This document shows, in pieces, positions 42,406-63,058 of a stretch of DNA of 64,000 nucleotides. Below the pieces are notes generated by a model. That model had not been told where the DNA came from and did no database searches. It worked only from the letters and a program-made list of their open reading frames with translations. This stretch comes from Escherichia coli. GTDB taxonomy: Bacteria > Pseudomonadota > Gammaproteobacteria > Enterobacterales > Enterobacteriaceae. Made by a program: the position numbers and the translations under genes. Every line of letters begins with the position of its first letter. Position 1 is the first letter of the stretch. The stretch lies in assembly GCF_009931435.1 (NCBI RefSeq), contig NZ_CP043414.1. One strand, given 5' to 3'.

Positions 42406-42539
42406 AATTCATTCCCTGTATGAATGATTAAAGGTGATTCTACACCATCCACTGCGAACGCAAAACGTACCAGGAGGATGTTTATATTGATGATATTATG
42501 TCGTCCTATAACTATACATGATGTCAATAAGTGACAAAG

Positions 42540-42866: not shown

Positions 42867-43071
42867 GGACATAAATCCATTTTATCAATAAGATACAAGG
42901 AAGTGTCAGCTGACAAAAGGTATTCTATTTCATCTTTTGTCAACCATTCACGGCGCAAATATACGCCTTTTTTTGTGATCACTCCGGCTTTTTTCGATCC
43001 TCATACTTGTATGGTAGTAGCTCAGTTGCGTAGATTTCATGCATCACGACAAGCGATGCAAGGAATCGAAC

Positions 43072-44286: not shown

Positions 44287-44297
44287 GGAGTAAGATA

Positions 44298-45317: not shown

Positions 45318-45374
45318 TACCAATAACGGCGAGTAAGTAGTACGCATCTTACCTCTTTTTTAGAGATAACCATT

Positions 45375-45467
45375 ATGACAATAGAAAAACACGAAAGAAG
45401 CACTAAGGATTTGGTGAAAGCAGCAGTATCGGGATGGCTGGGCACTGCGCTTGAATTTATGGATTTC
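45375..45467 (+). pseudogene. ydfJ: 5' fragment (31 codons) of ydfJ-like MFS metabolite:H+ symporter gene, truncated by prophage insertion
   Basis: ATG at 45375 gives MTIEKHERSTKDLVKAAVSGWLGTALEFMDF (the G-x-x-LEW/F-DF motif preceding TM1 of MHS transporters), then diverges and stops after 11 codons beside the integrase gene. Confidence 0.5.
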
Positions 45468-45504
45468 AAGAGTCATACGTGTCAACTATTTGATAAATAT
45501 TAAA

Positions 45505-46800: not shown

Positions 46801-46819
46801 TAGTTAGTGTGGCTTTTAG

Positions 46820-47071
46820 TCAAGTAAGATGACGTCTTGGTCTTGCTGATGCCTGGCGCTCAATCCAGCGATCAATTTCTTCCAGGTTGTAAAAGCATGG
46901 ACTGTTATCCCATGGCATACCGTCATGAGCGACATGCTTATATTCCCTTCCTTCCATAAACGATTTTTCCCGGGCCTTTTTTAACGTACCTTTTTTTATT
47001 CCTTTCAGCGCAATTAACTGCTCTTCGGATACCCATTTGCCGGGAGAGACAATCATGATTACTTCGCTCAT
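46820..47071 (-). CDS. xis: lambda Xis-like excisionase
   Basis: 83-aa ORF directly upstream of int; shares the GREY core with lambda Xis. Confidence 0.65.
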   Translation of the reverse strand: MSEVIMIVSPGKWVSEEQLIALKGIKKGTLKKAREKSFMEGREYKHVAHDGMPWDNSPCFYNLEEIDRWIERQASARPRRHLT

Positions 47072-47143
47072 CGATTTCTTTATCTCTTACATCAGACGAG
47101 CGCCGGTTGCAGAATACCAGTCACAACCGGCGACAGTTGAACA

Positions 47144-49615
47144 TTAAGAATCAGCCTGACTCGGGATCAGTTTTTGCCAGATAGCTGAAACGCATTTTGC
47201 CTGGTAACGGGCGTCATCAAGTGCATTATGGCGCTCACCTTCGAATGGAATAGCCGTTCTGGCATCGAAGTCTATGGCTTTCCCCAGCTCAACGATTGTG
47301 CGTACATCGCGATCGTTGTAGTAACGCCACGGGCAGGGGATCCCCTGCCGTTCGTATGAACGGCGCAAAATCGTGTTGTCGAAGTTGGCTCCATTTCCCC
47401 AGACCTGAACAAAAAATTCACCGGAGTTTTCGTCGATAAATTCCCGCAATTGTAACAGTGCATCATCTAACGGGATTTCATCGGTCATAATGGCAGATTG
47501 CGCTTCGCGTGATTGTTTAAGCCACCATTTAATGGTGTCCCGATCAATGACTCCGCCAGCAGTTTCCAGATCGATAGTCTTACTAAATTCCGGTCCCATA
47601 TCTCCGGTTTGCGGATCGAAAAATATTGCACCTATTGAGATAATCGGGGCATCGGGATTTTTTCCCATGGTTTCAAGGTCGATCATCAGATGAATCCCCG
47701 CTCTGCTGGTGGATGTGAGATTATGATGACCGTTCGCCTTAATTAAGGGATCTGACGCCTCGCCAGTTTCACTATCGCTGGCATGATGCTGATTGCCGCC
47801 AGTGTTCTCCTTGTGCTGATGCGCAGTGCCTTCCATTTCCTCCGGATCATTTTCCTGAACTTCAGGCTGATTCTCTCCATCGAATATTTCCTGGTATGTT
47901 GCGTCACCCATCACCGCACCACAATCAGGGCAGTTGCCGCCACCGCTATGACCGCAGGCGGTGCAGATCTTTTCCGGTTCCTGTTGCACTACTGGTTCAG
48001 GTTGTTTCGTTTCTGGCTCGTTTTGTTGCGTATTTGGGCTGTTTTGTTCCGCTTTCTGGTCGTTCTGTTCCGTTTCTTGCTGGTTCTGGTTCACAGAATC
48101 GCGGGTCTGGATCCCCTTAACCCATTTCGGATCATTCGGGTCGCTAATCCCTTCAACAAATTCACCACGTGATACTGCAAGCAGTTCATCGGCGTCAGGC
48201 TGGCTGATATTGGCTGCCTGCATAATTTTGTTTACTTCGTCAGCGGTAACTTTTACTGACCCTGGTTGTGCGGTCGTGTCAGATGCACCAGTATTTTGTT
48301 GTGAACCTGAGTATGTACCGTTTTTGCGGGCGAAATATTCTTCTTTCGTGATTTCAGTAGCCCCAGCAGACAGCGCCTTATCCAGACCAGAAAGTTTGTT
48401 TGCGCGACCGTATTTTTCGCCATCCTTGTCGGTGAAGAGGAAGTAGAACGGCCCCTCACGTTCTACAGATGGTTCGACTTCCACTTTGCATTCGGTTTTT
48501 TCGTTGTCTGGAATTGCCGTTTCCACTGCATCAGTTTCTGGTACTGGCGACGAGAGAGTATCAGTTGCGCTCTGATTTGTTCCTTCATCTTCAAACACGC
48601 CCTTTGTAGTCAGGTATTCAGTAATGTATTTGTTCAGTGCCACAGGGTCTTTGTGAATGTCGATCGGACGTTCACGGACAAGGCCAAAAATAGTCTGGCG
48701 GTCGTAGCGAAGGGCATCAGGCTGTTTGCGCATTGATGCCGAGATACGCTTCCAGTCTTCGCGGTCGTTGTCGATAACTTCATTTTTTGCCCAGCGATGG
48801 ATGCTGCCGTCAATGTTTCCGGCATCTACATCACCAGGCCAGAGAGCGTAGGCCAGTTCGTCATCCAGTGTTTTCCATGTCTGCTTGTATTCGCGATGAA
48901 TGGCAGCAATGACCGGGTTGATTTTTCCTGTTGAATTTTCAGTGTGCTGTTGATTGGCTCTGGCGCGGGCGAGATCAACAACAGACGTGTATTTTCCGGC
49001 TTCCTTGCGTTCACCTTCGCGACGTTTTTTCCAGATGCGCATCTCTGCCTGAATTTCGGGCCATTTGGCACCAGGCTTACATTTATGCTTAACCCACCCG
49101 ATGGCATGCAGCTTAAGCTCCGGATACATAGCGTTAACTTCTGGCATTTTCATCAACGCTTCAACGATATGGCCGTCGAATGTTGCCATGTCTTCCTGCA
49201 ACAATTCCTGTGCGCTAATCACCATATCAACAGTGATGTTTTCACATGTGTGGAACTTAACCATGACAGCGTTCTGTACTTCAGGGGCTAGGTTGTCAAA
49301 AGTGACGTTCATCGGATCGGATTCAGTCTCGACCGGGACAAAGGAAGCAGACGCCTCATCCCAGCGGTTTTCCTGCATATATTCAGCATCCCAGGAATCG
49401 AGGGCAGGGCGGGGTATACCGGGTTTATCCTCGCAAACAAGAAATTTATAAGCGCAGTCCTGAGCAGCCGGATAATGTTCCAGGAATTGCCAGTGAAATT
49501 TTGCGCGGGCGCGACGTTCATCACCGGCTTCAATGGCAGTGGCTACAGCGACGGCACCTTCTTCCTTTATTGCCTGTTCGTCCGGAATGGCGGCGCAAAT
49601 AAAGACTTTACTCAT
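47144..49615 (-). CDS. prophage exonuclease with C-terminal DEDDh 3'-5' exonuclease domain
   Basis: 823-aa ORF; MIDLETMG (Exo I), WGNGANFD (Exo II), H-x4-D (Exo III); CTACG...CPDCG zinc knuckle; Q/E/N-rich linker. Confidence 0.8.
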   Translation of the reverse strand: MSKVFICAAIPDEQAIKEEGAVAVATAIEAGDERRARAKFHWQFLEHYPAAQDCAYKFLVCEDKPGIPRPALDSWDAEYMQENRWDEASASFVPVETESDPMNVTFDNLAPEVQNAVMVKFHTCENITVDMVISAQELLQEDMATFDGHIVEALMKMPEVNAMYPELKLHAIGWVKHKCKPGAKWPEIQAEMRIWKKRREGERKEAGKYTSVVDLARARANQQHTENSTGKINPVIAAIHREYKQTWKTLDDELAYALWPGDVDAGNIDGSIHRWAKNEVIDNDREDWKRISASMRKQPDALRYDRQTIFGLVRERPIDIHKDPVALNKYITEYLTTKGVFEDEGTNQSATDTLSSPVPETDAVETAIPDNEKTECKVEVEPSVEREGPFYFLFTDKDGEKYGRANKLSGLDKALSAGATEITKEEYFARKNGTYSGSQQNTGASDTTAQPGSVKVTADEVNKIMQAANISQPDADELLAVSRGEFVEGISDPNDPKWVKGIQTRDSVNQNQQETEQNDQKAEQNSPNTQQNEPETKQPEPVVQQEPEKICTACGHSGGGNCPDCGAVMGDATYQEIFDGENQPEVQENDPEEMEGTAHQHKENTGGNQHHASDSETGEASDPLIKANGHHNLTSTSRAGIHLMIDLETMGKNPDAPIISIGAIFFDPQTGDMGPEFSKTIDLETAGGVIDRDTIKWWLKQSREAQSAIMTDEIPLDDALLQLREFIDENSGEFFVQVWGNGANFDNTILRRSYERQGIPCPWRYYNDRDVRTIVELGKAIDFDARTAIPFEGERHNALDDARYQAKCVSAIWQKLIPSQADS

Positions 49616-49707
49616 TTTGTTTTACCTCATTACAGATTTAAGGGTGAACAAATCCCTGCCATTGCTGGCATATAAGAATGAAATCGGATGTTTATTACGG
49701 AACTGTT

Positions 49708-49899
49708 TTAAAGACCTGCCGGGATTTCGTTATTATCCTGGTGAATAACTTTATCGACCGGGTAACAGTTACCGGGAATTTTCTGTTCGGTTGCTGCAGT
49801 CACACACTCCTGCATTGTCCTGTGAACACTGACTGCAATATCAACTGGCTCTCCGGAAACAAGAAAAACTGTCAGAACAAGTGCAAATGCTGTATTCAT
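49708..49899 (-). CDS. ydfD: small lysis-inducing protein YdfD-like
   Basis: 63-aa ORF from MNTAFALVLTVFL (hydrophobic N-terminus); start overlaps dicB stop in ATGA. Confidence 0.6.
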   Translation of the reverse strand: MNTAFALVLTVFLVSGEPVDIAVSVHRTMQECVTAATEQKIPGNCYPVDKVIHQDNNEIPAGL

Positions 49900-50084
49900 T
49901 GCCAGCATCCTTTTTGTATCGGACGTAAACGGGCCAACATTGAAAGAATGCATATTTTATTTAATAGCTCCCGTTCGTGTTTTCTCTTGTTAATGGCATC
50001 TTCAGTAAATACAGGGTTACTGATAGTGACACCAATTTCAAAACAACCTTCAGACGTATTAACGTTTGGTAATAACGTTTCCAT
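49896..50084 (-). CDS. dicB: cell-division inhibitor DicB
   Basis: 62-aa ORF METLLPNVNTSEGCFEIGVTISNPVFTEDAINKRK..., recognised DicB. Confidence 0.85.
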   Translation of the reverse strand: METLLPNVNTSEGCFEIGVTISNPVFTEDAINKRKHERELLNKICILSMLARLRPIQKGCWQ

Positions 50085-50255
50085 TATCGCGTCCTCAACA
50101 ATGAATTTTGTGATGCGGTGCCTGGTGCTTCCAGGTGACGTTAACCAGTTAACAATTAACGCCGGATACAGAGAATCCACCCATAACACTGTTTTTGGTT
50201 TTAACTGTTCCGCGTGCGCTCAGCCGCATTCACCGCATCACAAAATTCACTTTAA

Positions 50256-50311
50256 AAAGGGCGGCAGAGCAGTCACGGAGTAAAACTGATACCGCCAAAC
50301 GTCACCAGAAA
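50256..50311 (-). ncRNA. dicF: DicF small regulatory RNA
   Basis: Minus strand reads TTTCTGGTGACGTTTGGCGGTATCAGTTTTACTCCGTGACTGCTCTGCCGCCC plus T-run, matching DicF as recalled; about 170 nt upstream of dicB. Confidence 0.75.
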
Positions 50312-50652
50312 ATTGATAACAGAGGGCGTTGCAGCGGGGTTGTCACTTAAGCGTATGGTCAACCTGACAACCCGGTGTCCTCAACGGGGGAAGGAATAAC
50401 CCCGCCATACTTACCGCCGCGCCATTTCGCGGATTGCCACAACCGGAAGCGCACGGTCGACGAAAATTTAACGACAGGCTATCTATGAACCAGCTACCTC
50501 GCCGTGCGCTTTCGCGTTATGGTCTGACTTTTCAGGGAAATATCCTTTCAGTAAACTGTCAGTGCCGGATGCTCACCCGTGTCCGGCGCAAGCACTCCAC
50601 CTTACCCGTGGAGAACTCCTTAATTACCAACCTTAGCTTCGTTGGTTAGCTA

Positions 50653-50871
50653 TTAACGCGGGTATGTAATCATTCTGGCAATGGTTAATGCCGCTGCTTT
50701 TTCCAGATTGGTGATATCCTGCTCCAGAGAGGACAGATTTTCAGCCTGCTTAGCCCTGACTTCATTAGCCCATTTCAGATCCTGCGCTGCATTAATTTTC
50801 TGGTGCATCCACTCATAAAGTTCATCATTGGTATAGTCTGGCGCGATGATGACGGGTTCTCGTTTCTGCAT
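50653..50871 (-). CDS. ydfC: YdfC-like prophage protein
   Basis: 72-aa ORF in the dicB operon position. Confidence 0.6.
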   Translation of the reverse strand: MQKREPVIIAPDYTNDELYEWMHQKINAAQDLKWANEVRAKQAENLSSLEQDITNLEKAAALTIARMITYPR

Positions 50872-50900
50872 ACTGATTCCTCGCGGTGCTGTTTCGCTTA

Positions 50901-51029
50901 TCAGCCATTAGATTTTGCCGAACTGGAAAGCGCCTGTTTAAATTCGTTGAAGCTGTGAGCTTCTTCGCCTTCGGCAAGGCCTTCGAAGTATTCTTCGTAA
51001 GCCTTTTCCATGATTGTGTCGAAATCCAT
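50901..51029 (-). CDS. ydfB: YdfB-like small acidic protein
   Basis: 42-codon ORF (MDFDTIMEKAYEEYFEGLAEG...) found by manual translation; below ORF-track cutoff. Confidence 0.5.
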   Translation of the reverse strand: MDFDTIMEKAYEEYFEGLAEGEEAHSFNEFKQALSSSAKSNG

Positions 51030-51030
51030 A

Positions 51031-51186
51031 TCACCCACCTGAATTTCTTTCCAGCCAGCGACGCGCTCCAGATTCGGTTTTAAACGTTTTGCTTTTGGTA
51101 TACGTCATTGCGGTGAACGTACCGTCCTGGTTGGGGAACACGCCACATACCAGAGATTCGCTGTTGCCAAGATTGATAGTATCCAT
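51031..51186 (-). CDS. ydfA: YdfA-like prophage protein
   Basis: 51-aa ORF from MDTINLGNSESLVCGVF; first gene downstream of the repressor. Confidence 0.6.
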   Translation of the reverse strand: MDTINLGNSESLVCGVFPNQDGTFTAMTYTKSKTFKTESGARRWLERNSGG

Positions 51187-51451
51187 GCTGACCTCATTTC
51201 CCCTTAACGCCGGGGTAGCGGAACAAAAACCTGCTGCATAGTTATTAAAGTTGTACCCTGCCGTCATGTTCTTACGCCTCGGGCTGGCTACTTAACCCCT
51301 GACCACTGCCTGGTAACTCGAAGTATTGCCCTGCATTCTGTGGAGCGGGGTGAGTTGGTATGAAAAGAAGGATACCCATAGGTATTTAAAAAGTAAATAC
51401 CCATGGGTGACTTTTTGCAGTGTCTTAACTGGTGACTAGTTGTTTGGTGAG

Positions 51452-51871
51452 CTATGATGCGTTTTGTGCTTTCTTTTTACGGATTTCTTCGTAGATCATA
51501 TTGTAATACTGTTTTTTCTCTTCAAGAGTTTTTAATAAGTTATCCGCTTCACTTTCTGGCAGTTCGTCTAAGAGATCTAAAAAAATACGTTGTCGTGGCG
51601 TTAGAACCCTTGTTTCATAACTGGAGGCTGTGTTCGTTGATGATGAAACGATACCATCCATCCATCCCCGGGGTAACCCAAAGGACTCTTCGATAATCTC
51701 CACCATATCATCAGCGATCCGTTTTTTTCCCTTTTTCCCCTCTGGGTACAACATTCTTGATACATAAGAAGGCTCGCGCCCGATCTTTCTGGCCACGTTA
51801 ACCGCTTTACCATCGCATTTCTCATCACGAATTTTGATGAGTTGCTGTCGTCTAAATTCATATTTGTCCAT
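51452..51871 (-). CDS. prophage repressor, DicA-like C-terminal domain with distinct N-terminal HTH
   Basis: 139-aa ORF; HTH-like VARKIGREPSYVSRM; C-terminal LDLLDELPESEADNLL resembles DicA; no SD before ATG. Confidence 0.7.
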   Translation of the reverse strand: MDKYEFRRQQLIKIRDEKCDGKAVNVARKIGREPSYVSRMLYPEGKKGKKRIADDMVEIIEESFGLPRGWMDGIVSSSTNTASSYETRVLTPRQRIFLDLLDELPESEADNLLKTLEEKKQYYNMIYEEIRKKKAQNAS

Positions 51872-51971
51872 AGGTAAATAATAGATGCGATTACTGCAAG
51901 GTAAACAACCTGTGGGTATTGACTTTTGTTTACCTGTAGGTATTCTTTGCTGTGTTTACTAAGGAGTAGCT
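51872..51971. promoter_or_regulatory. divergent promoter/operator region of the immunity switch
   Basis: AGGTAAATAA (51873), AGGTAAACAA (51899) and inverted TTGTTTACCT (51927) repeats around TTGACT; AAGGAG RBS for cro-like gene. Confidence 0.5.
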
Positions 51972-52253
51972 ATGGAAGAATTAAGAATATTTCTCAATTC
52001 TCTTTCGTCAGATGAACAGCGTATGTTTGCATGCGAGTGTGGTACCAGCATCGGTTATCTAAGAAAGGCATTGAGTAAAGGTCAAGTGTTAGGGGCATCG
52101 TTATGTGTCCTTATTGAGCGAGCCAGTAATGGTGAAGTTACACGTCAGCAACTAAGGCCTTTTGATTGGATGAATATTTGGCCCGAGCTGGAAGATACCA
52201 AAACGTTAACACAACCACTTTCTAGGAGCTTGATTCATGAAAATCAAGCATGA
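51972..52253 (+). CDS. Cro/YdaS-like HTH regulator
   Basis: 93-aa ORF divergent from repressor with AAGGAG RBS. Confidence 0.65.
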   Translation: MEELRIFLNSLSSDEQRMFACECGTSIGYLRKALSKGQVLGASLCVLIERASNGEVTRQQLRPFDWMNIWPELEDTKTLTQPLSRSLIHENQA

Positions 52254-52662
52254 ACACATCCGCATGGCGATGAATGCCTGGGCGCATCCGGACGGTGAAA
52301 AAGTTCCGGCAGCTGAAATAACCAGGGCTTATTTTGAACTGGGTATGACGTTCCCAGAACTGCATGACGACAGCCATCCGGAAGCCCTGGCTCGCAATAC
52401 CCAGAAAATTTTCCGCTGGGTAGAGAAAGACACCCCTGATGCAGTTGAAAAAATTCAGGCGTTGTTACCAGCGATCGAAAAGGCAATGCCACCTTTGCTG
52501 GTGGCCAGAATGCGCAGCCACAGTTCAGCTTATTTTCGGGAGCTGGTGGAGACGCGGGAGCGACTGGTGAGAGACGCTGATGATTTTGTCGCAGTGGCAA
52601 TCGCCGGTTTCAATCAGATGAACCGTGGTGGCCCGGCAGGAAATGCTGTGGCAGTGCATTGA
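52237..52662 (+). CDS. YdaT-like (CII-like) regulator
   Basis: 141-aa ORF starting MKIKHEHI as in Rac YdaT (recalled); 17-nt overlap with preceding gene. Confidence 0.55.
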   Translation: MKIKHEHIRMAMNAWAHPDGEKVPAAEITRAYFELGMTFPELHDDSHPEALARNTQKIFRWVEKDTPDAVEKIQALLPAIEKAMPPLLVARMRSHSSAYFRELVETRERLVRDADDFVAVAIAGFNQMNRGGPAGNAVAVH

Positions 52663-52733
52663 GTGATAATAGCCATATCGAATCGCTTCCGGCAACTCGT
52701 GAGTAAAAAGATTCGGTATCAGAAGAGGTGAGT

Positions 52734-53804
52734 ATGGCTAACGCCTGGCTCAGATTATGGCATGACATGCCAAATGACCCTAAGTGGCGAACAATTGCCA
52801 GGGTGTCAGGGCAGCCAATTGCAACAGTGATGGCAGTGTATATCCACCTCCTGGTGAGCGCGTCACGAAATGTCACGCGAGGTCACATTGATGTCACGAC
52901 AGAAGATTTGGCAAGTGCGCTCGACGTGACAGAAGAGGTAATTGATTCAATTTTGCAGACGATGCAGGGGCGGGTACTTGATGGTGATTTAATCACTGGA
53001 TGGGAAAAACGCCAGGTGCTTAAAGAGGACAACGGCAATATTTCGCAAACCGCAAAATCTCCTGCAGAGCGCAAGAGGGCGCAGCGAGAGAGGGAAAGAA
53101 AGCGGGAACAAAATGGCGATTGTCACGGCGCATCACGAAATGTCACGCACATGTCACGACGAGTCACGACAGATAAAGATACAGATAAAGATACAGATCA
53201 AGAAGATCAAAACACTATGGTCCATGGCGTAAAAAACGCTACGAACCAGGCAGGGGATGTTCAGACCGTCAATCCTGGTCAGCCAGCAGGCACGACACCG
53301 GAAGCCGATTCAGCGTATGCGCTGAAACCCGATTCGGGCGCTGTGCAGCAGGTGATGACCCAAAGGCCGGAACAATCACACCAACTGCAGCAGCCTGAAG
53401 CCGATTCCGCCATTCAGCGGGAAGCCGATCGGGTAGTCCCGGAAAACACCGGGCTGTCTGTGGGACGAGTGGATTATCCGGATGTGTTCGAACAGGTCTG
53501 GCGGGAGTACCCGTTGCGTGCCGGAGCAAACCCGAAGAAATCCGCTTTCAGTGCCTGGAAGGCCAGATTACGCGAGGGGGTGCCACCAGAGGCCATGCTG
53601 GATGGCGTGAGGCGTTACGCAAGATACTTGGCGGCTACCGGGAAAACGGGAACGGAATTTGTTCAGCGAGCGACGACGTTTTTTGGACCGGACCGGAATT
53701 TTGAGAACCCCTGGTTGCTCCCGGTAAGCGGCACGAACAACCAGCGTTGTGTGAATCATATTTCTGAACCGGATAACGAAATTCCGCCGGGCTTCAGGGG
53801 GTAA
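52734..53804 (+). CDS. replication-module protein (YdaU-like, putative initiator)
   Basis: ORF 52728..53804, ATG at 52734 after AGAGGTGAG; N-terminal WLRLWHDMPNDPKW; contains iteron clusters and an acidic DKDTDKDTD linker. Confidence 0.6.
   Translation: MANAWLRLWHDMPNDPKWRTIARVSGQPIATVMAVYIHLLVSASRNVTRGHIDVTTEDLASALDVTEEVIDSILQTMQGRVLDGDLITGWEKRQVLKEDNGNISQTAKSPAERKRAQRERERKREQNGDCHGASRNVTHMSRRVTTDKDTDKDTDQEDQNTMVHGVKNATNQAGDVQTVNPGQPAGTTPEADSAYALKPDSGAVQQVMTQRPEQSHQLQQPEADSAIQREADRVVPENTGLSVGRVDYPDVFEQVWREYPLRAGANPKKSAFSAWKARLREGVPPEAMLDGVRRYARYLAATGKTGTEFVQRATTFFGPDRNFENPWLLPVSGTNNQRCVNHISEPDNEIPPGFRG
52861..53169 (+). repeat. iteron-like repeats (putative prophage origin) inside the replication gene
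   Basis: GTCACG-type motifs at about 52862, 52872, 52882, 52893 (inverted at 52925) and 53122, 53132, 53142, 53153, 53163; TCACGAAATGTCACGC occurs twice. Confidence 0.55.
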
Positions 53805-53844
53805 GTGTTAATTTCTGGTCATGAGGTAATTTTCAGGAGGGCTT

Positions 53845-54270
53845 GTGGCAAAAGTTTTTACACAAGAAGAGCGGGAAAAAATTAAAGGGCAGGTTGTTGA
53901 ACTCGTACGCCAGAGTGGGCGCGAGACGTTACGACAACTGGAAACTAAAACTGGGGCAACAAGATATCTGATGAGCGTTCTGGCCAGAGAGCTGGTTGCC
54001 AGTGGCGATGTATACAACTCTGGTTACGGGTTATTCCCGTCTGAACAGGAGCGTAAGGACTGGCAAAATGCCCGTAAAAAGCTCTCAAGGGCAAAGCTGA
54101 AGAAACCATCTGCGGTTGATCCGGACCTTATCTGGTCATTACCTGACGGAGAAATACGTCGCTACGATAGTTGTCTAAACATAATCTGTCGCGAGTGCCG
54201 GAAGAGCGAAGTTATGCAGCGCATTATGGCATTTTATCAGGGAAATGTTAGGTATTTTAGACGTTACTAG
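53845..54270 (+). CDS. hypothetical basic protein (141 aa), replication-module associated
   Basis: GTG start 7 nt after CAGGAGG; GC similar to prophage backbone; no family recognised. Confidence 0.55.
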   Translation: MAKVFTQEEREKIKGQVVELVRQSGRETLRQLETKTGATRYLMSVLARELVASGDVYNSGYGLFPSEQERKDWQNARKKLSRAKLKKPSAVDPDLIWSLPDGEIRRYDSCLNIICRECRKSEVMQRIMAFYQGNVRYFRRY

Positions 54271-54497
54271 ATTAAAGGGCATTAGTTCAGATATGCATTG
54301 ACATTTTCATGGCACAAGGTAGAGCTAGCGTGGTTGTTCGCTTTGTGCCAAGAGTGGTCATTGATAATATTTTGGTGGGTTACATCTGTCAATGTTTCAG
54401 GTGATATGATATACAAATAGCCAGACTTAGACTGGCATGCTGTTTATTTTTATATTATGGGTGTGCCACATGGATTTAAAACTTATTGAGATATGAC

Positions 54498-55523
54498 ATG
54501 GATACTTTTCATAATATTTTGCTTGAGCACATAGACAGCCTTTTAAAAGAGAGACTTGATTTATCTGGTGACGCTGATATCGAAAAAGAAATTAATAACC
54601 TAATTCCCAAAATAGTCATTGTCGTTAAAAAATCTCTTATTGGCTCGGCCAATGCAATGCTTAGAGAACATCGTTCTCTTTGTGATGAATTTGTTGAGAG
54701 AAATATTTCAAGATGGGCAGAGGCTTTTGATTTGCTCGAAACACTTATAGTGATATGCACGGAGTCCGGTGAAGAGTTCAATCGTTCTTATAGACCACAA
54801 GCTGCCTCTGAAGAGGATGTGGTTTTTGATTTAGTCGTTCGGCATCACGCAAGAGCTTGCCACATCGCCAACGAAATTTTGTGTCTCTTAAAGAATGGAT
54901 TTGCAGATGCTGCCCAAGCGAGATGGCGAGCACTTCATGAGGTAGCAGCCACAGCTATGTTTATAGCAAAGCATGGAAAAGAGTGTGCTGAGCGCTTTTA
55001 CTACCATGAAGTGGTTGATTCATATACTGGAATGTTGGAACACAAAAAGTACGAGCACCGGTTAGAAGCAAAAGGTCCAACTATTGAAGAAATAGCTGAG
55101 TGCAAAGTTCAATTTGATCTATTAATAAAAAAATACGGCAAAAAATATGCAGATAATTATGGGTGGGCATCTTATATTTTCCCTAACCATAATAAAGTGG
55201 GGTTTGGAGCTATTGAGAAAGATGTTCAGTTAGAACACATGCGCCCTTATTATAAGTGGGCGAGTCAGAATGTACACACCGGTTCCAAGGCAATGAGAAA
55301 TAGGCTTGGTCTCTGTGAAACTGGTGATGATATATTATTGGTCGGGCAAAGTGATTCAGGAATGGCTGATCCAGCCCATGCTACTGCTATTAGTTTGATG
55401 CAGATTACTGTGACACTTTTATTCTTAAAACCAACCATTGATCATGCCGTCATTTCAAAAATAATACAGGATTATTCTGATGAGATTGGAAATGTATTTC
55501 TTAAAATTGATAAGGGTAATTAA
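54498..55523 (+). CDS. orphan AT-rich hypothetical protein (341 aa from ATG; 345 aa from TTG at 54486), function unknown
   Basis: Uninterrupted 1-kb ORF; visibly AT-rich versus flanks (about 38-40% GC by eye); no TM segments, no P-loop; no recognised homologue. Confidence 0.7.
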   Translation: MDTFHNILLEHIDSLLKERLDLSGDADIEKEINNLIPKIVIVVKKSLIGSANAMLREHRSLCDEFVERNISRWAEAFDLLETLIVICTESGEEFNRSYRPQAASEEDVVFDLVVRHHARACHIANEILCLLKNGFADAAQARWRALHEVAATAMFIAKHGKECAERFYYHEVVDSYTGMLEHKKYEHRLEAKGPTIEEIAECKVQFDLLIKKYGKKYADNYGWASYIFPNHNKVGFGAIEKDVQLEHMRPYYKWASQNVHTGSKAMRNRLGLCETGDDILLVGQSDSGMADPAHATAISLMQITVTLLFLKPTIDHAVISKIIQDYSDEIGNVFLKIDKGN

Positions 55524-55905
55524 AAATTGGAAAAGTGATAGTATATTCTTGTTTTTTTACTGGTAATTAAATGTTTTTAAAGTTACTAGTTCACACCTAT
55601 CGAACGTCCGGTCTTCGCCCAAAGCGGACTAGAAGGTTAGCTTGCGTCGGATTTGGCGTATTTAAAGAATCGCTGGTGGTTACTGGTTGTTGTGTTCCAT
55701 TTCTACAGAACAAAATCACAGAAACTATACCCAATAGTTGTATCTCATCAATGATGAGAGAGCCTCATATTTATCAGGACTGGTGTACGTCCAATACAGG
55801 AGGTTGTCGTGCTGGTTCTCAAATGTGCGCTGGCTATTGCAGCTGTAATGGCAATTTATTGTCTTGCTGTTGTTCTTATGGATCGCCTTTCTGATTGATT
55901 TTATA

Positions 55906-56109
55906 TTGGCCAGGTGACGGGAGTTAAGTAGAATGGCTGCGGGTGCTTGAGGCTATCTGTCTCAGGCATGAACACCAAAGGCAGATAGAGAAAAGCCCCA
56001 GTTAACATTACGCGTCCTGCAAGACGCTTAACATTAATCTGAGGCTCAATCTATGAACGGCAAATCTAGGTTAGCCTCTTACGTGCCGAAAGGCAAGGAG
56101 AAGCAGGCT
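55906..56109 (+). promoter_or_regulatory. hok promoter and 5' leader
   Basis: TTGGCC-17 bp-TAGAAT; leader GCGGGTGCTTGAGG (55939-55952) complementary to 3' CCTCAATGCACCCGC (56315-56329), consistent with hok fold-back pairing. Confidence 0.5.
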
Positions 56110-56265
56110 ATGAAGCAGCAAAAGGCGATGTTAATCGCCCTGATCGTCATCTGTTTAACCGTCATAGTGACGGCACTGGTAACGAGGAAAGACCTCTGCG
56201 AGGTACGAATCCGAACCGGCCAGACGGAGGTCGCTGTCTTCACAGTCTACGAACCTGAGGAGTAA
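56110..56265 (+). CDS. hokD: Hok/Gef-family type I toxin
   Basis: 51-aa MKQQKAMLIALIVICLTVIVTALVTRKDLCEVRIRTGQTEVAVFTVYEPEE, near-identical to K-12 HokD/RelF as recalled. Confidence 0.9.
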   Translation: MKQQKAMLIALIVICLTVIVTALVTRKDLCEVRIRTGQTEVAVFTVYEPEE

Positions 56266-56333
56266 GAGACTTGGCGAGGGAGAAATCCCTCGCCACCTCT
56301 GATGTGTCAGGCATCCTCAATGCACCCGCACTT

Positions 56334-56358
56334 AACCCGCTTCGGCGGGTTTATTTTA
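56334..56358 (+). terminator. intrinsic terminator of hok mRNA
   Basis: AACCCGC-TTCG-GCGGGTT hairpin followed by TATTTTAT. Confidence 0.7.
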
Positions 56359-56723
56359 TCTGTAAATATTTTTATAAAAATAATGCCCACACACAGCATA
56401 AAACAAAAAGTATCACAGATAAAAAAGGAGCGTAATGTGCAGATTTGTTGTTTTCCATATTTACTCACTTTAACATAATCAATATTGATATGGTTGTTGT
56501 TTCGGTGGTTTCAAACGAGATGTTATGGTGATCTGGTAAAATTGCATAACATTAAAATTTAATTTATCTAATCGCTTTTAATAATAAGCGTTGTGTTTAT
56601 CCCAATAATCTGTTGTTTGACTTTTATTCCATTAATGTAGGGGCTTTACACTGGAACCAGTTTATTTATACTTTATACGCCAGCCTGAACAACTGGCACC
56701 TGCTGCGCCAGCAGAGACAACCG

Positions 56724-57002
56724 ATGGCGCACGATACCAAATTACACAATTCTGATGATTCTGCCGTCTTTGCCAGCAGGTGCGGACGGCGTTTTCATGC
56801 ATTCAAATCGGACTGGTTCCAGCATCCACCATGCACTGAAGAGCAGGCTGAATGGATAATTCAGTGTTACCGCAGGCGCGGATACGAGGTTAAAAAAGCC
56901 CTTAGCCTCGACTACCGTCACTGGATAATCTCAGTCAGATTGCCTTACTCCGAACGCCCACCGCGTCCGTCCCACACATTCCAGCAACGCATCTGGAGGT
57001 AA
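56724..57002 (+). CDS. rem: Rem-like prophage protein (start uncertain; ORF opens at 56613)
   Basis: ORF upstream of ydfU in the K-12 Qin rem position; start chosen at first ATG. Confidence 0.45.
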   Translation: MAHDTKLHNSDDSAVFASRCGRRFHAFKSDWFQHPPCTEEQAEWIIQCYRRRGYEVKKALSLDYRHWIISVRLPYSERPPRPSHTFQQRIWR

Positions 57003-57003
57003 C

Positions 57004-58053
57004 GTGCGGGTATTACTTCGACCTGTTCTGGTACCGGAACTCGGGCTGGTGATCGTTAAGCCGGGCCGTGAATCCATGCCGGTATTCCACAATACCCGGT
57101 TACTGGTGGAGCCGGAACCGAAAAGCATGCGTAATCTGCCGTCCGGGGTCGTTCCTGCCGTTGGCCAGCCGCTGGCGGAAGACAAAACATTGCTGCCGTT
57201 TTTTAGTAACGAACGGGTGATTCGTGCTGCTGGCGGCGTTGGCTCATTGTCTGACTGGCTATTACGTCATGTTACATCCTGCCAGTGGCCTAATGGCGAT
57301 TACCATCACACTGAAACAGTCATTCACCGTTATGGTACCGGCGCAATGGTGTTGTGTTGGCACTGCGACAACCAACTGCGTGACCAGACATCGGAATCAC
57401 TGGAGCTGCTTGCTCAACAAAATCTGACAGCATGGGTGATTGACGTCATCCGTCACGCAATAAGCGGTACGCAGGAGCGGGAATTATCTTTGGCTGAATT
57501 ATCCTGGTGGGCGGTCTGCAATCAGGTGGTGGATGCACTACCTGAGGCTGTATCGCGTCGTTCGCTGGGATTACCAGCGGAAAAAATCTGCTCGGTGTAC
57601 CGCGAAAGCGACATCGTACCGGGAGAGCAGACCGCCACCAGCATATTGAAACAACGCACAAAAAATCTTGCACCGTTGCCTTACGCCCACCAGCAACAAA
57701 AACTACCACAGGAAAAGACGGTGGTAAGCATCACCGTTGATCCAGAGTCTCCGGAATCTTTCATGAAGCTGCCTAAACGTCGCCGCTGGGTTAAGGAGAA
57801 ATACACACGTTGGGTTAAGACACAGCCGTGTGCTTGCTGCGGTATGCCAGCCGACGATCCGCATCATCTGATTGGTCACGGGCAGGGCGGAATGGGAACA
57901 AAAGCACATGATCTCTTTGTGTTGCCTTTGTGCAGAAAGCATCACAACGAGCTGCATACGGATACAGTGGCATTTGAAGAGAAGTATGGCTCCCAACTGG
58001 AGCTGATATTTCGTTTTATCGATCGCGCGCTGGCAATTGGCGTACTGGCGTAA
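57004..58053 (+). CDS. ydfU: YdfU-like protein (DUF968) with C-terminal HNH-like Cys/His motif
   Basis: 349-aa ORF, GTG start; CACCG...DDPHHLIGHG...CRKHHNELH. Confidence 0.8.
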   Translation: MRVLLRPVLVPELGLVIVKPGRESMPVFHNTRLLVEPEPKSMRNLPSGVVPAVGQPLAEDKTLLPFFSNERVIRAAGGVGSLSDWLLRHVTSCQWPNGDYHHTETVIHRYGTGAMVLCWHCDNQLRDQTSESLELLAQQNLTAWVIDVIRHAISGTQERELSLAELSWWAVCNQVVDALPEAVSRRSLGLPAEKICSVYRESDIVPGEQTATSILKQRTKNLAPLPYAHQQQKLPQEKTVVSITVDPESPESFMKLPKRRRWVKEKYTRWVKTQPCACCGMPADDPHHLIGHGQGGMGTKAHDLFVLPLCRKHHNELHTDTVAFEEKYGSQLELIFRFIDRALAIGVLA

Positions 58054-58066
58054 GTGGAGAACGAGC

Positions 58067-58819
58067 ATGAACCTTGAAGCCTTACCAAAATATTACTCCC
58101 CAAAATCTCCAAAATTGAGCGATGACGCTCCAGCGACAGGCACCGGTTGTTTAACAATTACGGATGTAATGGCAGCGCAGGGGATGGTGCAGTCGAAAGC
58201 ACCACTTGGGTTGGCCTTATTTCTGGCAAAAGTTGGTGTTCAGGACCCTCAGTTTGCGATTGAAGGCCTGCTAAATTACGCGATGGCACTGGATAACCCG
58301 ACATTGAACAAATTGAGTGAAGAAATCCGGTTACAGATTATTCCTTACCTCGTGAGTTTTGCCTTTGCTGATTACTCCAGGTCTGCGGCAAGTAAGGCTC
58401 GCTGTGAGCATTGTTCAGGTACGGGATTTTATAATGTATTGCGCGAAGTGGTGAAACACTACAGACGCGGGGAATCTGTAATCAAGGAAGAATGGGTGAA
58501 GGAACTATGTCAGCATTGCCATGGTAAGGGCGAAGCCAGCACAGCGTGCAGAGGGTGTAAGGGTAAAGGGATTGTTCTGGATGAAAAAAGAACCCGGTTT
58601 CATGGCGTACCGGTATATAAGATTTGTGGGCGTTGTAATGGAAACCGGTTTAGTCGTTTACCGACCACGCTGGCACGACGTCATGTCCAGAAGCTGGTAC
58701 CAGACCTGACCGATTATCAGTGGTATAAGGGGTATGCGGACGTCATTGGTAAACTGGTAACAAAGTGCTGGCAGGAAGAAGCATACGCGGAAGCGCAATT
58801 GAGGAAGGTGACGAGATAA
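58067..58819 (+). CDS. quuQ: late-gene antiterminator Q-like protein
   Basis: ORF 58037..58819; start at MNLEALPKYY (250 aa); four CxxC zinc-finger repeats. Confidence 0.85.
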   Translation: MNLEALPKYYSPKSPKLSDDAPATGTGCLTITDVMAAQGMVQSKAPLGLALFLAKVGVQDPQFAIEGLLNYAMALDNPTLNKLSEEIRLQIIPYLVSFAFADYSRSAASKARCEHCSGTGFYNVLREVVKHYRRGESVIKEEWVKELCQHCHGKGEASTACRGCKGKGIVLDEKRTRFHGVPVYKICGRCNGNRFSRLPTTLARRHVQKLVPDLTDYQWYKGYADVIGKLVTKCWQEEAYAEAQLRKVTR

Positions 58820-58850
58820 ATGATTTTTGCTGAAGATGGCGACATGATGT

Positions 58851-58879
58851 TTGCATTTTTCAAAAAATATGGATAAAAT
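58851..58879 (+). promoter_or_regulatory. candidate late promoter (pR'-like)
   Basis: TTGCAT-17 bp-TAAAAT, about 30 bp after Q stop and 50 bp before a strong terminator. Confidence 0.35.
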
Positions 58880-58926
58880 TTTTTCAACGATGGGCTTTGT
58901 ATACCCGACGTTAAGAAAAAGTAGAA

Positions 58927-58955
58927 AACCCGCTGATGAGCGGGTTTTGTGCTTT
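58927..58955 (+). terminator. intrinsic terminator after Q (tR'-like)
   Basis: AACCCGCT-GATG-AGCGGGTT stem followed by TTGTGCTTT. Confidence 0.7.
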
Positions 58956-59240
58956 AAATGGGGCAATGGTAATGTTGAATCTCATCCCGGGACTCATGTC
59001 TGTTAACTTATTATTTAGCTGGTGACTTGGTTATTTGCCTGATGTTTAAAATGTTTTCTTCCAGTACAATGCCCCTAAACACAATGAGTCTGCTTATTAT
59101 ATTATTAGCAGAGCTATTACGGCCAAAGTACAGCATAAGCTTTTAAAGCCAATCAACCAGTCATCAAGACAGACGGGGTTATTCATAAAAACTCTCCATG
59201 TGTGATCCGATGGGGCCTGAAATTAAAGCTTTAATATAGC

Positions 59241-59453
59241 TCATGAAAGGTAAACATTGGCAGCTGAAGGGCCACGCAGACCATTTATCCGGCAAAATTC
59301 CACGCGTAATCCGGTGGTAATTTCTTCTGCATCGCGGAGATTGAGCGCTGAAACATGAAGCTGGACATCGATACGACCATCGGATGGGGTGATAAGACCC
59401 TTGCCGCTTTTGCCGTCAAAGGTTTTGACAATTCCTGTCATTTTACGGGACAA
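59241..59453 (-). CDS. cspF: cold-shock-domain protein CspF-like
   Basis: 70-aa CSD ORF divergent from cspB. Confidence 0.85.
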
Positions 59454-59753
59454 AAAAATTCCTTAATACTGATAACTTGGCGCACTATACACACGTTCCT
59501 GAAGAAAGCTATAGTTTTTTGATGGGGTTGAAGATGGCTGGATGTCTAAAATAAACATTGCTTCATATGTTCAACTATGCGTTAATGATTGCGTCGGTTT
59601 GAAGAACAGACGATATACGAAGTAGTTTACTAAAGCAGTTCTCATTTCAGGTGTTATTCACTTATTCCTTCTTTGAGTCTCTCCAATTAAGTACGAAGTC
59701 GTTTCTGTTATGCAAACCATTTATGCCGAAAGGCTCAAGTTAAGGAATGTAGA

Positions 59754-59969
59754 ATGTCAAATAAAATGACTGGTTTAGTAAAATGGTTTAACGCTGATAA
59801 AGGTTTCGGCTTTATTTCTCCTGTTGATGGTAGTAAAGATGTGTTTGTGCATTTTTCTGCGATTCAGAATGATAATTATCGAACCTTATTTGAAGGTCAA
59901 AAGGTTACCTTCTCTATAGAGAGTGGTGCTAAAGGTCCTGCAGCAGCAAATGTCATCATTACTGATTAA
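59754..59969 (+). CDS. cspB: cold-shock protein CspB
   Basis: 71-aa ORF with RNP1-like KGFGFI motif; about 300-nt upstream leader typical of cold-shock genes. Confidence 0.9.
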
Positions 59970-60250
59970 AATTCATCGCTCGTCTGTATACGATAACGAA
60001 GAAGGCTGATGCCTGAGTAGAGATACGGACAGAGTAGTGAATATTGGATTTCTTTAATAAAAATTAAGGAGGTCCAATACATGAAACAATGGCCAGCATA
60101 TTTGGCAAAATCTTAATCAGGAAAAGTATGCTAACCATTGTGGTGAAGTGCAGGTTTGCTGCATGAATAGTTTTACAGCAGAAGCTAACTGCTGGCATGG
60201 CAAAACAAAGTGCGTAAGTGGATGACTCCCACAAAAAGCACCACAATCTC

Positions 60251-60275
60251 AAACCCGCTCAGGCGGGTTTTTTAT
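60251..60275 (+). terminator. intrinsic terminator
   Basis: AAACCCGC-TCAG-GCGGGTTT hairpin followed by T4. Confidence 0.7.
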
Positions 60276-60332
60276 TATCTGCTTTAAATATATTATTAAA
60301 ATATAAAAAATACTTGTTACTAATAAAATCAA

Positions 60333-60503
60333 TCAGGCTACAGCTTTAAGATTTGTCTGGAATACTTTGTTGCAATGAGGGCAGATCAAAAGGGCACCTT
60401 TTTGTACTCTTGAAAAACTGTGTTCTGACTCTTGGGTGCAGTTTGGGCAGGAACATTTAACGAGATAATTACGGCGTGATTTTGAGTCTTTACGTTCTGA
60501 CAT
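60333..60503 (-). CDS. ydfK: YdfK/YnaE-like zinc-ribbon protein
   Basis: ORF 60333..60554; start at MSERKDSKSRRNY (56 aa) with AGGAAA RBS; CSCPNC...CPHC. Confidence 0.6.
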   Translation of the reverse strand: MSERKDSKSRRNYLVKCSCPNCTQESEHSFSRVQKGALLICPHCNKVFQTNLKAVA

Positions 60504-60722
60504 AGGCTTTTCCTGTATAAATGGCCGTATACAGTACACTAAATATGAAAACATTTCTCGTATTATTATTTTATATATGACTTTCTTTCAAAATAATTAC
60601 TCACATTTTTAATGTGTATGTTTCTTTAGCGCCGTTGAGAACAGCGTGTGCTGTCAAAACTACCCCGTAGACTCCGATCTTTTCAAACATATTGCACCAT
60701 CCGTGTACATCGGGGTGAGGAT

Positions 60723-61254: not shown

Positions 61255-62278
<1,024 letters not shown>

Positions 62279-62641
62279 GGTAATATTAAATCGGAACATT
62301 TACATCGCGGAATGTAAAATTTAAATAAAAAGGACTCTTCCATGAGCCAAAATTCCTGAAATCTTAAGGGTAAGATAAAAGGTCTTAATCAGAATGACAC
62401 GTTATTATTAATAAATAAAGCTATTCTTTCATTGCTGTGTTTTTCTTTACAAAAGTAATCCTTGCTATGGGTGGTTAATCATGCGTTAATGGTGTTCTGG
62501 TTTGTTACAAATTTATCTGAAGCAGTCATTGTTATAATTTTATTATTTGTACCTCTTGAGATTTCCTTGTTGGTTTTTCTCTCTGATATTTTTTTTCGGA
62601 CCATTCTGCCCAAGGGCTAATTTCTTCAAAAGGTAATAATT

Positions 62642-62854
62642 ATGTCTAACAAAATGACTGGTTTAGTGAAATGGTTTAACCCTGAAAAAGGTTTTGGTTT
62701 CATCACGCCGAAAGATGGCAGCAAAGATGTGTTTGTCCATTTCTCAGCAATTCAGAGCAACGATTTCAAAACATTAACTGAGAATCAGGAAGTTGAATTT
62801 GGTATTGAGAACGGACCTAAAGGCCCTGCCGCTGTTCATGTAGTGGCGCTTTGA
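62642..62854 (+). CDS. cspI: cold-shock protein CspI
   Basis: 70-aa CSD ORF with KGFGFI motif and AT-rich leader. Confidence 0.9.
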
Positions 62855-63058
62855 GGTAGACAATATTACAAACCATATTCACTTTAGATGCCCGTGTTGT
62901 CATGGTTCCCAGTATAGAACATCATCTTTTGATGTTTCTGACATGAATCCTTTCGGGGCAAAATGTATCTTTTGTAAATCAATGATGATTACATTTGATA
63001 ATATTTCACAATACTTAAATGCCAGCCGTCTGTCGTTGGATTTAAAAAAGTGAAAATG

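What the first reader, a model, noticed from the sequence alone, without database searches (positions are those of the whole stretch)
54271..55560. AT-rich orphan gene between the prophage replication module and hok: candidate single-gene defence or abortive-infection moron
A 1-kb ORF (ATG 54498 or TTG 54486 to 55523) sits in an AT-rich island (about 38-40% GC by eye versus about 50% for the flanking prophage backbone and host). I recognise no family. The product looks soluble and helix-rich, with no P-loop or TM segment. It carries R-x4-6-H pairs (RHHARACH, RWRALH) that are compatible with, but not diagnostic of, a HEPN-type RNase. It occupies the slot where K-12 Qin has relBE (from memory), directly upstream of an intact hok locus. 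Compositional outlier, moron position, toxin neighbour and lack of a recognisable housekeeping role make it the best candidate for an uncharacterised phage-defence or exclusion function.
Basis: partly seen in the sequence, partly recalled or inferred. Interest (0 to 1): 0.8.

Follow-up and report, generated by a model that had tools for sequence, protein, structure and literature searches.

The report
HEPN-like DUF5677 gene in prophage hotspot
The AT-rich gene is real but not an orphan: it belongs to the large uncharacterised DUF5677 family, folds like a HEPN RNase, and sits as a mobile one-gene cassette in a variable slot of E. coli prophages, which makes it a good but untested candidate for a new single-protein anti-phage gene.

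Summary
A 341-aa ORF (ATG 54498 to stop 55523, + strand) lies in a low-GC island (38.5% GC, GC3 31%; neighbours about 53% GC) between the Qin-like prophage replication genes and an intact hok/sok locus. The "no family" claim is wrong: the protein is Pfam DUF5677 (E 1.5e-33), with more than 3,000 clusters at 50% identity in bacteria and archaea and no published function.

The gene travels as a 1.3-kb cassette (54336-55630). It is also found on a Salmonella plasmid, P4-like satellites, a P2-like prophage and integrase islands, often beside known defence genes. The DUF977-hokD interval occurs in 4,071 of 5,426 E. coli genomes and holds other cargo elsewhere (SIR2, DUF4209/HEPN, a P-loop ATPase, relBE in K-12).

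Best reading: a stand-alone HEPN-type RNase acting as an abortive-infection gene, like HepS of Gifsy-1. This is inferred. Defence is untested here, and one DUF5677 protein from a Bacillota species showed no defence in a small screen.

The parts
54498..55523 (+). DUF5677 gene, 341 aa plus stop. Residues 1-70 form a variable N-terminal helical region, 71-300 a conserved core and 301-341 a moderately variable C-terminal helix.
   Evidence: ORF. Pfam DUF5677, E 1.5e-33. Orthologs all start at this ATG. AlphaFold pLDDT 93.8, pTM 0.90. dN/dS is 0.50 for the N-terminus and 0.10 for the core.
54921..54941 (+). Codons for R142-W-R-A-L-H147-E148, the family signature and candidate HEPN Rx4H catalytic motif.
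   Evidence: Across 72 sequences down to 32% identity: R142 99%, W143 99%, R144 100%, H147 97%, E148 100%.
54336..55630 (+). Mobile cassette: the gene with 162 nt upstream and 107 nt downstream. It is shared at 89.9% nucleotide identity with a Salmonella plasmid.
   Evidence: BLASTN of the window against L019-L022. The Klebsiella prophage copy shares 54379-55511 at 77%.
54428..54456 (+). Candidate own promoter (TAGACT, 17-nt spacer, TATATT), overlapping a small hairpin at 54420-54436. The hexamers are roughly conserved in the Salmonella and Klebsiella cassettes.
   Evidence: Consensus scan and alignment A4. This is weak evidence: the hairpin region does not fold better than shuffled sequence (z -0.58).
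53845..54270 (+). DUF977 gene, last gene of the replication-side module and left anchor of the variable slot.
   Evidence: Annotation of the near-identical locus L001. This flank occurs in 4,071 of 5,426 E. coli genomes.
54271..54350 (+). Conserved non-coding segment downstream of DUF977, shared by all slot variants, with a TTGACA at 54298. Homology between variants ends at 54347-54368.
   Evidence: Alignment A3 and BLASTN against L016-L018.
55941..56351 (+). hok/sok type I toxin-antitoxin locus and right anchor of the slot: hokD CDS about 56110-56265, terminator-like hairpin 56334-56351.
   Evidence: Rfam sok, 110 bits; hokD annotation; terminator scan. The right flank shared with other variants restarts at 55614, 55761 or 55862.

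Best explanation
The gene encodes a stand-alone, soluble, all-helical enzyme of the DUF5677 family that is a divergent member of the HEPN fold. Its R142-x4-H147 motif most likely forms a metal-independent RNase site.

It is carried as a self-contained one-gene cassette in the accessory slot between the replication module (DUF977) and hok/sok of a Qin-like lambdoid prophage. The most likely role is abortive infection or exclusion. The protein would be made in the lysogen from its own promoter and held inactive. A product of an infecting phage, probably sensed through the fast-evolving N-terminal 70 residues, would switch it on, and it would then cut tRNA, mRNA or rRNA so that the infected cell stops supporting phage growth.

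Shown: family membership, fold similarity, motif conservation, cassette mobility, slot variability and defence-gene neighbours.
Inferred: RNase chemistry, expression in the lysogen, the trigger, and the defence phenotype.
For: Fold:
- The AlphaFold model has pLDDT 93.8.

Motif:
- R142 and H147 are 99% and 97% conserved across 72 sequences down to 32% identity, with a conserved acidic residue (E126, 94%) in the preceding helix.
- Anantharaman 2013 (PMC3710099) lists Ribo L-PSP-HEPN as keeping Rx4-6H and as distantly related to AbiD and AbiF.

Selection: dN/dS is 0.18 overall, 0.10 in the core and 0.50 in the N-terminus.

Solitary and mobile:
- No neighbour is conserved across about 13 contexts.
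- The gene is found in lambdoid prophages (E. coli, Klebsiella), P4-like elements (Enterobacter, Serratia), a P2-like prophage, a Salmonella plasmid, Bacillus phage SPR and 35 IMG/VR contigs.

Defence neighbours:
- dCTP deaminase (PADLOC E 1.3e-168) plus a NACHT protein in Providencia.
- PDC-M01 in Enterobacter.
- PDC-S15 and YoeB/YefM in Kushneria.
- A retron-type RT next to P0127.
- HipAB, PDC-M36A and Eco57I in Serratia.

Slot: other E. coli prophages hold SIR2, DUF4209 (PDC-S39, E 4e-102, with a canonical RNQLAH HEPN motif), an Sll1717 P-loop ATPase, QueH, or relBE in K-12.

Precedent: HepS, a single HEPN protein in the equivalent slot of Gifsy-1, is an Abi tRNA anticodon nuclease (PMC13043305).
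Against: - No sequence method links the protein to any HEPN family. There was no match in Pfam other than DUF5677, in PADLOC, in NCBIfam, in PDB sequence or profile searches or in Foldseek against the PDB. hhalign against the DUF4209 HEPN region gave probability 0.15.
- The residue after the Arg is an invariant Trp, not the usual polar N, D or H.
- In the model the motif lies inside helix 136-159 rather than at a helix end, and there is no Ex3[KR] motif. These depart from the description in PMC3710099.
- A DUF5677 ORF from a Bacillota species, although enriched near defence-marker recombinases, was not among the five protective candidates against six E. faecalis phages.
- Promoter evidence is only a consensus match, and no convincing terminator was found.
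- Expression in the lysogen is unknown.
Confidence: 0.45

Rival explanations
1. The protein is a HEPN-type RNase, but it serves the mobile element rather than defending against phage. It could act as an addiction or stabilisation toxin, or as a weapon against competing plasmids, satellites or prophages.
For: It rides on plasmids next to VapBC, on P4-like satellites and beside hok/sok. In K-12 the same slot holds relBE. The one experimental test of a DUF5677 protein found no phage defence.
Against: No antitoxin-like partner is conserved in any context. A solitary toxin cannot cause post-segregational killing without a labile inhibitor. Several neighbours are bona fide anti-phage genes.
Confidence: 0.15
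2. The protein is a metal-dependent enzyme built on a DinB-like or other four-helix bundle. H117, H147-E148, E240 and H260 would bind the metal, the substrate would be something other than RNA, and the HEPN resemblance would be fold convergence.
Confidence: 0.15
3. The gene benefits the phage during lytic growth or lysogeny. It could degrade host RNA for takeover, or act as counter-defence, rather than exclude other phages.
For: It lies on the rightward early-to-late transcription path, just after the replication genes. The same slot can hold QueH and methyltransferases, which are typical DNA-modification or counter-defence cargo.
Against: Near-identical cassettes function outside phages, on a plasmid, in integrase islands and as lone chromosomal genes. 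The gene is absent from all but one of 50,697 sequenced phage genomes. Only 73 of 5,426 E. coli genomes have it, although 4,071 have the left (DUF977) flank of the slot.
Confidence: 0.1

Closest known systems
HepS (STM14_3211) of Salmonella prophage Gifsy-1 (Sargen et al., Nature 2026, PMC13043305)
   Same: Both are single HEPN-type proteins with no partner gene, encoded in the accessory region after the replication genes of a lambdoid prophage. Both have an Rx4H motif. HepS is constitutively expressed but latent and acts by abortive infection.
   Different: HepS is under 250 aa, with R100-H105. It has been shown experimentally to be a tetramer, to be triggered by tail-tip protein J and to cut tRNA anticodon loops. 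The protein here is 341 aa and belongs to a different family: PDB sequence and profile searches found no match. Its oligomer state, trigger and substrate are unknown.
Ribo L-PSP-HEPN family (Pfam HEPN_RiboL-PSP) and the related AbiD/AbiF HEPN clade (Anantharaman et al. 2013, PMC3710099)
   Different: Identity in the structural alignment is only 9%, and no HMM-level match was found. No L-PSP fusion or ParB operon is present here. DUF5677 has Trp after the Arg, plus extra N- and C-terminal helices.
DUF4209 / C6orf70-type HEPN proteins (PADLOC candidate PDC-S39)
   Same: One occupies the identical DUF977-hokD slot in other E. coli prophages as single-gene cargo. It is a HEPN family by PMC3710099, with a canonical RNQLAH motif, and it is a PADLOC defence candidate (E 4e-102).
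   Different: It is 594 aa, sits on the opposite strand and has its motif near the C-terminus. hhalign found no similarity (probability 0.15).
P2 and P4 defence hotspots (Rousset et al. 2022, PMC9122126)
   Same: The concept is the same: a fixed slot in a temperate phage or satellite that holds interchangeable, AT-rich, often single-gene anti-phage cargo. DUF5677 relatives also sit in P4-like and P2-like elements.
   Different: The slot here is in Qin/Rac-type lambdoid prophages, between DUF977 and hok/sok. I did not check whether it has been catalogued as a hotspot. DUF5677 itself is not in PADLOC-DB v2.

Membership tests
Pfam DUF5677 (PF18928) | Significant match to the family HMM. | tested here: met
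   E 1.5e-33, residues 112-274, covering model positions 3-162 of 166. All 72 aligned relatives also match.
HEPN superfamily | Four-helix up-and-down core fold resembling known HEPN domains. | tested here: met
HEPN superfamily | Conserved Rx4-6H motif. | tested here: met
   R142-WRAL-H147, with R 99% and H 97% conserved across 72 sequences down to 32% identity.
HEPN superfamily | Polar residue (N, D or H) immediately after the Arg. This is typical but not universal. | tested here: not met
   Position 143 is Trp in 71 of 72 sequences. The feature is as described in PMC3710099.
HEPN superfamily | Motif placed at the end of core helix 3 or the start of the loop to helix 4, with the His solvent-exposed. 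| tested here: inconclusive
HEPN superfamily | Second conserved acidic residue in the upstream helix, often within an Ex3[KR] motif. | tested here: inconclusive
   E126 (94% conserved) lies in the preceding helix 108-132, but not in an Ex3[KR] context.
HEPN superfamily | Profile-level sequence similarity to a recognised HEPN family. | tested here: not met
   No HEPN-clan Pfam hit at E <= 10. No hit in PADLOC or the PDB profile search. hhalign against the DUF4209 HEPN region gave probability 0.15, using a single target sequence. HHpred against Pfam and PDB70 could not be run.
HEPN superfamily | Metal-independent RNase activity from a composite site formed by two motifs in a dimer. | not testable with these tools
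   This needs biochemistry, or a multimer model with coordinates.
Anti-phage defence or abortive-infection gene | Match to a known or candidate defence family. | tested here: not met
   PADLOC-DB v2.0.0 returned 0 families at E <= 1.
Anti-phage defence or abortive-infection gene | Recurrent co-location with defence genes or in hotspots of mobile elements. | tested here: met
   The slot alternatives are SIR2, PDC-S39 and an Sll1717 ATPase. Neighbours include dCTPase, NACHT, PDC-M01, PDC-S15, a retron-type RT, HipAB and Eco57I. This is a small, non-random sample of about 13 contexts. A preprint reports DUF5677 enriched near defence-marker recombinases.
Anti-phage defence or abortive-infection gene | Reduces phage plaquing when expressed. 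| not testable with these tools
   The only published test, of a DUF5677 ORF from a Bacillota species expressed in E. faecalis against six phages, did not list it among the protective candidates.
Moron (autonomous accessory gene in a prophage) | Composition different from the neighbours, discrete insertion boundaries and own expression signals. | tested here: met
   GC 0.385 and GC3 0.31, against about 0.53 for the neighbours. The boundaries are 54336-54368 and 55614-55630. The promoter-like site is conserved in the cassette copies. A terminator was not demonstrated.

The most novel reading that the evidence does not exclude
DUF5677 is a previously unrecognised, very widespread family of single-protein HEPN abortive-infection nucleases, with more than 3,000 clusters at 50% identity across bacteria and archaea. 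A fast-evolving N-terminal region would act as the phage sensor. In addition, the DUF977-hok/sok interval, whose left (DUF977) flank occurs in about 75% of complete E. coli genomes, is a lambdoid-prophage defence hotspot whose other uncharacterised occupants (Sll1717-type ATPase, alpha/beta hydrolase, the DUF7167 cluster, DUF4406) would also be new defence genes.
Probability: 0.35. Interest if true: 0.65.

Novelty: new member of a known kind. Interest (0 to 1): 0.5.

Why it matters
A large protein family without a known function (3,113 clusters at 50% identity, in bacteria, archaea, phages, satellites and plasmids) gains a concrete, testable mechanism: an RNase site at R142/H147 that can be checked with two point mutants. 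If it is confirmed, it adds a second, unrelated example of the "solo HEPN in a lambdoid accessory slot" design recently shown for HepS. That design raises the question of how a prophage avoids triggering its own suicide enzyme. The analysis also defines a very common, easily anchored slot in E. coli prophages (DUF977 to hok/sok) that could be mined for further single-gene defence or counter-defence cargo.

Tried and rejected
- PADLOC and NCBIfam scans of the protein returned nothing.
- PDB sequence and profile searches returned nothing.
- Foldseek against the PDB gave no significant hit, best E 0.3.
- A Pfam scan of all 72 aligned relatives, and of an 840-aa fusion protein (P0173), found only DUF5677. 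The N-terminal extensions and fusions therefore gave no functional clue.
- hhalign of the family profile against the HEPN region of the slot-mate DUF4209 gave probability 0.15, which is uninformative because the target was a single sequence.
- I looked for HepS in the Gifsy-1 record of strain LT2 for a direct comparison. The 201-aa candidate STM2620 has no R100-H105 motif, so I dropped this.
- I considered an intrinsic terminator before and after the gene. Neither flank folds better than shuffled sequence (z -0.58 and -0.42), so no terminator is claimed.
- I considered the 777-aa SEC-C protein that follows the gene in Enterobacter as a partner. It is absent in every other context and is split into two ORFs in L003 while the DUF5677 gene is intact, so I rejected it as an obligate partner.
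- I rejected RHHARACH as a catalytic motif because H122 is not conserved.
- I rejected TTG 54486 as the start codon because all orthologs begin at the ATG.

Full report
**What is there.** The ORF is real. It runs from ATG 54498 to the stop at 55523 on the + strand and encodes 341 aa. The alternative TTG at 54486 can be dismissed, because every ortholog starts at the Met of the ATG and RefSeq uses that start.

The composition claim holds on computation. The ORF has GC 0.385 and GC3 0.31. The O-like and DUF968 genes are at 0.53-0.54, the adjacent DUF977 gene is at 0.47, and the window as a whole is at 0.483. The ORF falls at the 2.8th percentile of equal-length windows.

The window is collinear (96-98% identity, 42388-58053) with a Qin-like lambdoid prophage beside ynfA-rspAB.

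**It is not an orphan.** The protein matches Pfam DUF5677 (E 1.5e-33) and PHROG 27456, a family of unknown function. It is annotated "DUF5677 domain-containing protein" in 73 of 5,426 complete E. coli genomes, in 72 of them at 99% identity or more.

The family is large. It has 3,113 clusters at 50% identity with E <= 1e-3, in bacteria and on archaeal plasmids. Full-length 341-343-aa orthologs stay 60-89% identical across Enterobacterales, Vibrio, Colwellia, Francisellaceae, Desulfuromonas, Sulfurovum and Nitrospiraceae. That pattern indicates horizontal spread under strong constraint.

The full-text literature search found only three papers that mention DUF5677, and none gives a function.

**Anatomy of the protein.** There is no Walker A motif, no HExxH and no TM segment. 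AlphaFold2 on a 72-sequence alignment gives a confident all-helical model, with pLDDT 93.8 and pTM 0.90.

Conservation is uneven. The first 70 residues are variable: identity among orthologs is 37-50% over the first 60 residues, and dN/dS is 0.50. The core at 71-300 is tightly held: 64-90% identity by 20-residue block, and dN/dS 0.10.

Across sequences down to 32% identity, these positions are invariant or nearly so: W73, H117, E126, L130, G134, D137, R142, W143, R144, H147, E148, W223, E240, R249, P250, Y252 and H260. RHHARACH is not conserved, because H122 varies.

**Fold.** Sequence methods find nothing beyond DUF5677: PADLOC, NCBIfam, the PDB sequence and profile searches, and Foldseek against the PDB all came back empty or non-significant.

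Fold and motif together make HEPN the best assignment. I put HEPN-superfamily membership at about 0.7.

Four departures are recorded:
- Trp, not a polar residue, follows the Arg.
- The motif sits inside helix 136-159 in the model rather than at a helix end.
- There is no Ex3[KR] motif.
- There is no profile-level link.

**A mobile one-gene cassette in a variable slot.** Window 54336-55630 is 89.9% identical to a segment of a Salmonella plasmid (ParM/ParA/Rep3), where it sits beside a VapBC-type pair. A Klebsiella lambdoid prophage carries a 77%-identical copy in the analogous post-replication position. The three cassettes share their upstream non-coding region, including a promoter-like TAGACT-17-TATATT at 54428-54456. 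I could not show a terminator.

In E. coli the left flank (DUF977 plus about 90 conserved non-coding bases) occurs in 4,071 of 5,426 genomes, at 6,224 places. The DUF5677 cassette fills only 74 places.

In other strains, the same flanks enclose different cargo:
- a SIR2 family protein;
- an Sll1717-type P-loop ATPase;
- a DUF4209 protein, which is PADLOC candidate PDC-S39 (E 4e-102), a HEPN family by PMC3710099, and carries a canonical RNQLAH motif;
- an alpha/beta hydrolase;
- QueH, with or without a methyltransferase;
- a cluster of small genes including DUF7167;
- DUF4406.

Homology between the variants stops at 54347-54368 and resumes at 55614-55862.

**Contexts elsewhere.** No neighbour is conserved, so the gene works alone. 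It recurs on mobile elements and next to defence genes:

| Host or source | Context |
|---|---|
| Enterobacter | Cargo at the end of a P4/PICI-like island. One variant also carries PDC-M01. |
| Serratia | A P4-like satellite, with HipAB, PDC-M36A and Eco57I nearby. |
| Providencia | Integrase, then DUF5677, then a dCTP deaminase (PADLOC dCTPase, E 1.3e-168), then a 2,147-aa NACHT protein. |
| Kushneria | Beside PDC-S15 (FRG domain), MtlR and YoeB/YefM. |
| Metagenome (P0127) | Near a retron-type RT. |
| P2-like prophage (L062) | On the opposite strand, between tail-completion and baseplate genes. |
| Bacillus phage SPR | The only match among 50,697 sequenced phage genomes. |
| IMG/VR | 35 viral contigs. 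|
| Photobacterium, Desulfuromonas, one further genome | A lone chromosomal gene. |

**Mechanism proposed.** By analogy with HepS of Gifsy-1, I propose a latent RNase that an infecting phage switches on. HepS is a single HEPN protein in the accessory region after the replication genes. It is constitutively made, latent, activated by a tail-tip protein, and cuts tRNA anticodon loops (PMC13043305). In the protein here, the variable N-terminus is the likely sensor or autoinhibitory part.

None of this is demonstrated. Against it:
- PADLOC has no model for the family.
- A preprint found DUF5677 enriched beside defence-marker serine recombinases, but did not list the tested Bacillota ORF among the five candidates that protected E. 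faecalis against six phages. A narrow panel in a foreign host is weak negative evidence, but it is the only experiment.

**Verdict.** The finding is a new, uncharacterised member of a known kind: a solo HEPN-type accessory gene in a prophage hotspot. Confidence in the combined statement (HEPN RNase plus abortive-infection role) is about 0.45. It is a solid experimental candidate but not a surprise, so I score interest at 0.5.

Noticed in passing
window 54271-54350: An 80-90-nt non-coding segment just after the DUF977 stop is conserved in all slot variants (SIR2, Sll1717, DUF4209, DUF5677) and contains a TTGACA at 54298. The Salmonella plasmid copy of the cassette begins inside it, at 54336. 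It could be a shared promoter or the recombination point for cargo exchange.
   Followed up: partly
window 56353-56706: Other Qin-like prophages, including K-12, carry the rem gene between hokD and the small gene before DUF968. This window, and L001, instead have about 350 AT-rich bases (GC 0.37-0.39) with no match to the loci that carry rem.
   Followed up: no
window 55941-56115: The Rfam sok match (110 bits, full-length model) is reported on the + strand, the same strand as hokD, although Sok is antisense to the hok leader. I did not resolve which strand the Rfam model represents.
   Followed up: no
window 59551-60650 and 62151-63000: Two stretches are even lower in GC (0.35-0.37) than the finding. 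The first overlaps a full-length cspA thermoregulator match (59593-59985, 159 bits), so it includes a prophage cold-shock gene. The second was not examined and may hold further accessory cargo.
   Followed up: no
window 58054-60696: Collinearity with the reference prophage L001 stops after the DUF968 gene. The RusA/Q/tRNA region of L001 is replaced by different sequence in the window.
   Followed up: no
window 50259-50310 (- strand): A full-length DicF antisense sRNA (Rfam, 76.7 bits) lies in the dicB region, consistent with a Qin-type immunity and cell-division-inhibition module.
   Followed up: no
L002, L004, L005, L006: 9194/9200-11533; L003: 9200-11532: In the Enterobacter P4/PICI-like islands, the DUF5677 gene is always followed about 170 nt later, on the same strand, by a 777-779-aa protein whose only recognised feature is a C-terminal SEC-C motif. 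In L003 this protein is split into two ORFs. It may be separate cargo or a lineage-specific partner.
   Followed up: partly
L036 6406-17026: A compact Providencia island holds a P4-type integrase, DUF5677, a dCTP deaminase (PADLOC dCTPase, E 1.3e-168), three small unknown ORFs and a 2,147-aa NACHT/STAND protein.
   Followed up: partly
L062 5938-6966: A 342-aa DUF5677 relative (41% identical) lies on the opposite strand between the tail-completion and baseplate-assembly genes of a P2-like prophage. From memory, this position resembles the S-V moron slot (orf30) of P2.
   Followed up: partly
L017 2344-3831, L033 3631-4404, L034 1826-3047: Other occupants of the same E. coli slot have no firm defence assignment and could be worth screening: an Sll1717-type P-loop ATPase (495 aa; only a weak PDC-M28C hit), an alpha/beta hydrolase on the opposite strand (no PADLOC hit), and a cluster of four small ORFs including DUF7167.
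   Followed up: partly
L035 1743-3290: In E. coli strain M1, about 1.5 kb between DUF977 and hokD carries no annotated gene. I did not examine what is there.
   Followed up: no
P0173 (840 aa), P0222 (671 aa) and about 420-aa relatives such as P0141: Some DUF5677 proteins carry an extra 70-100 N-terminal residues. Two are fused to long N-terminal regions with apparent hydrophobic (membrane-like) stretches. Pfam, run on P0173 only, recognises just DUF5677.
   Followed up: partly
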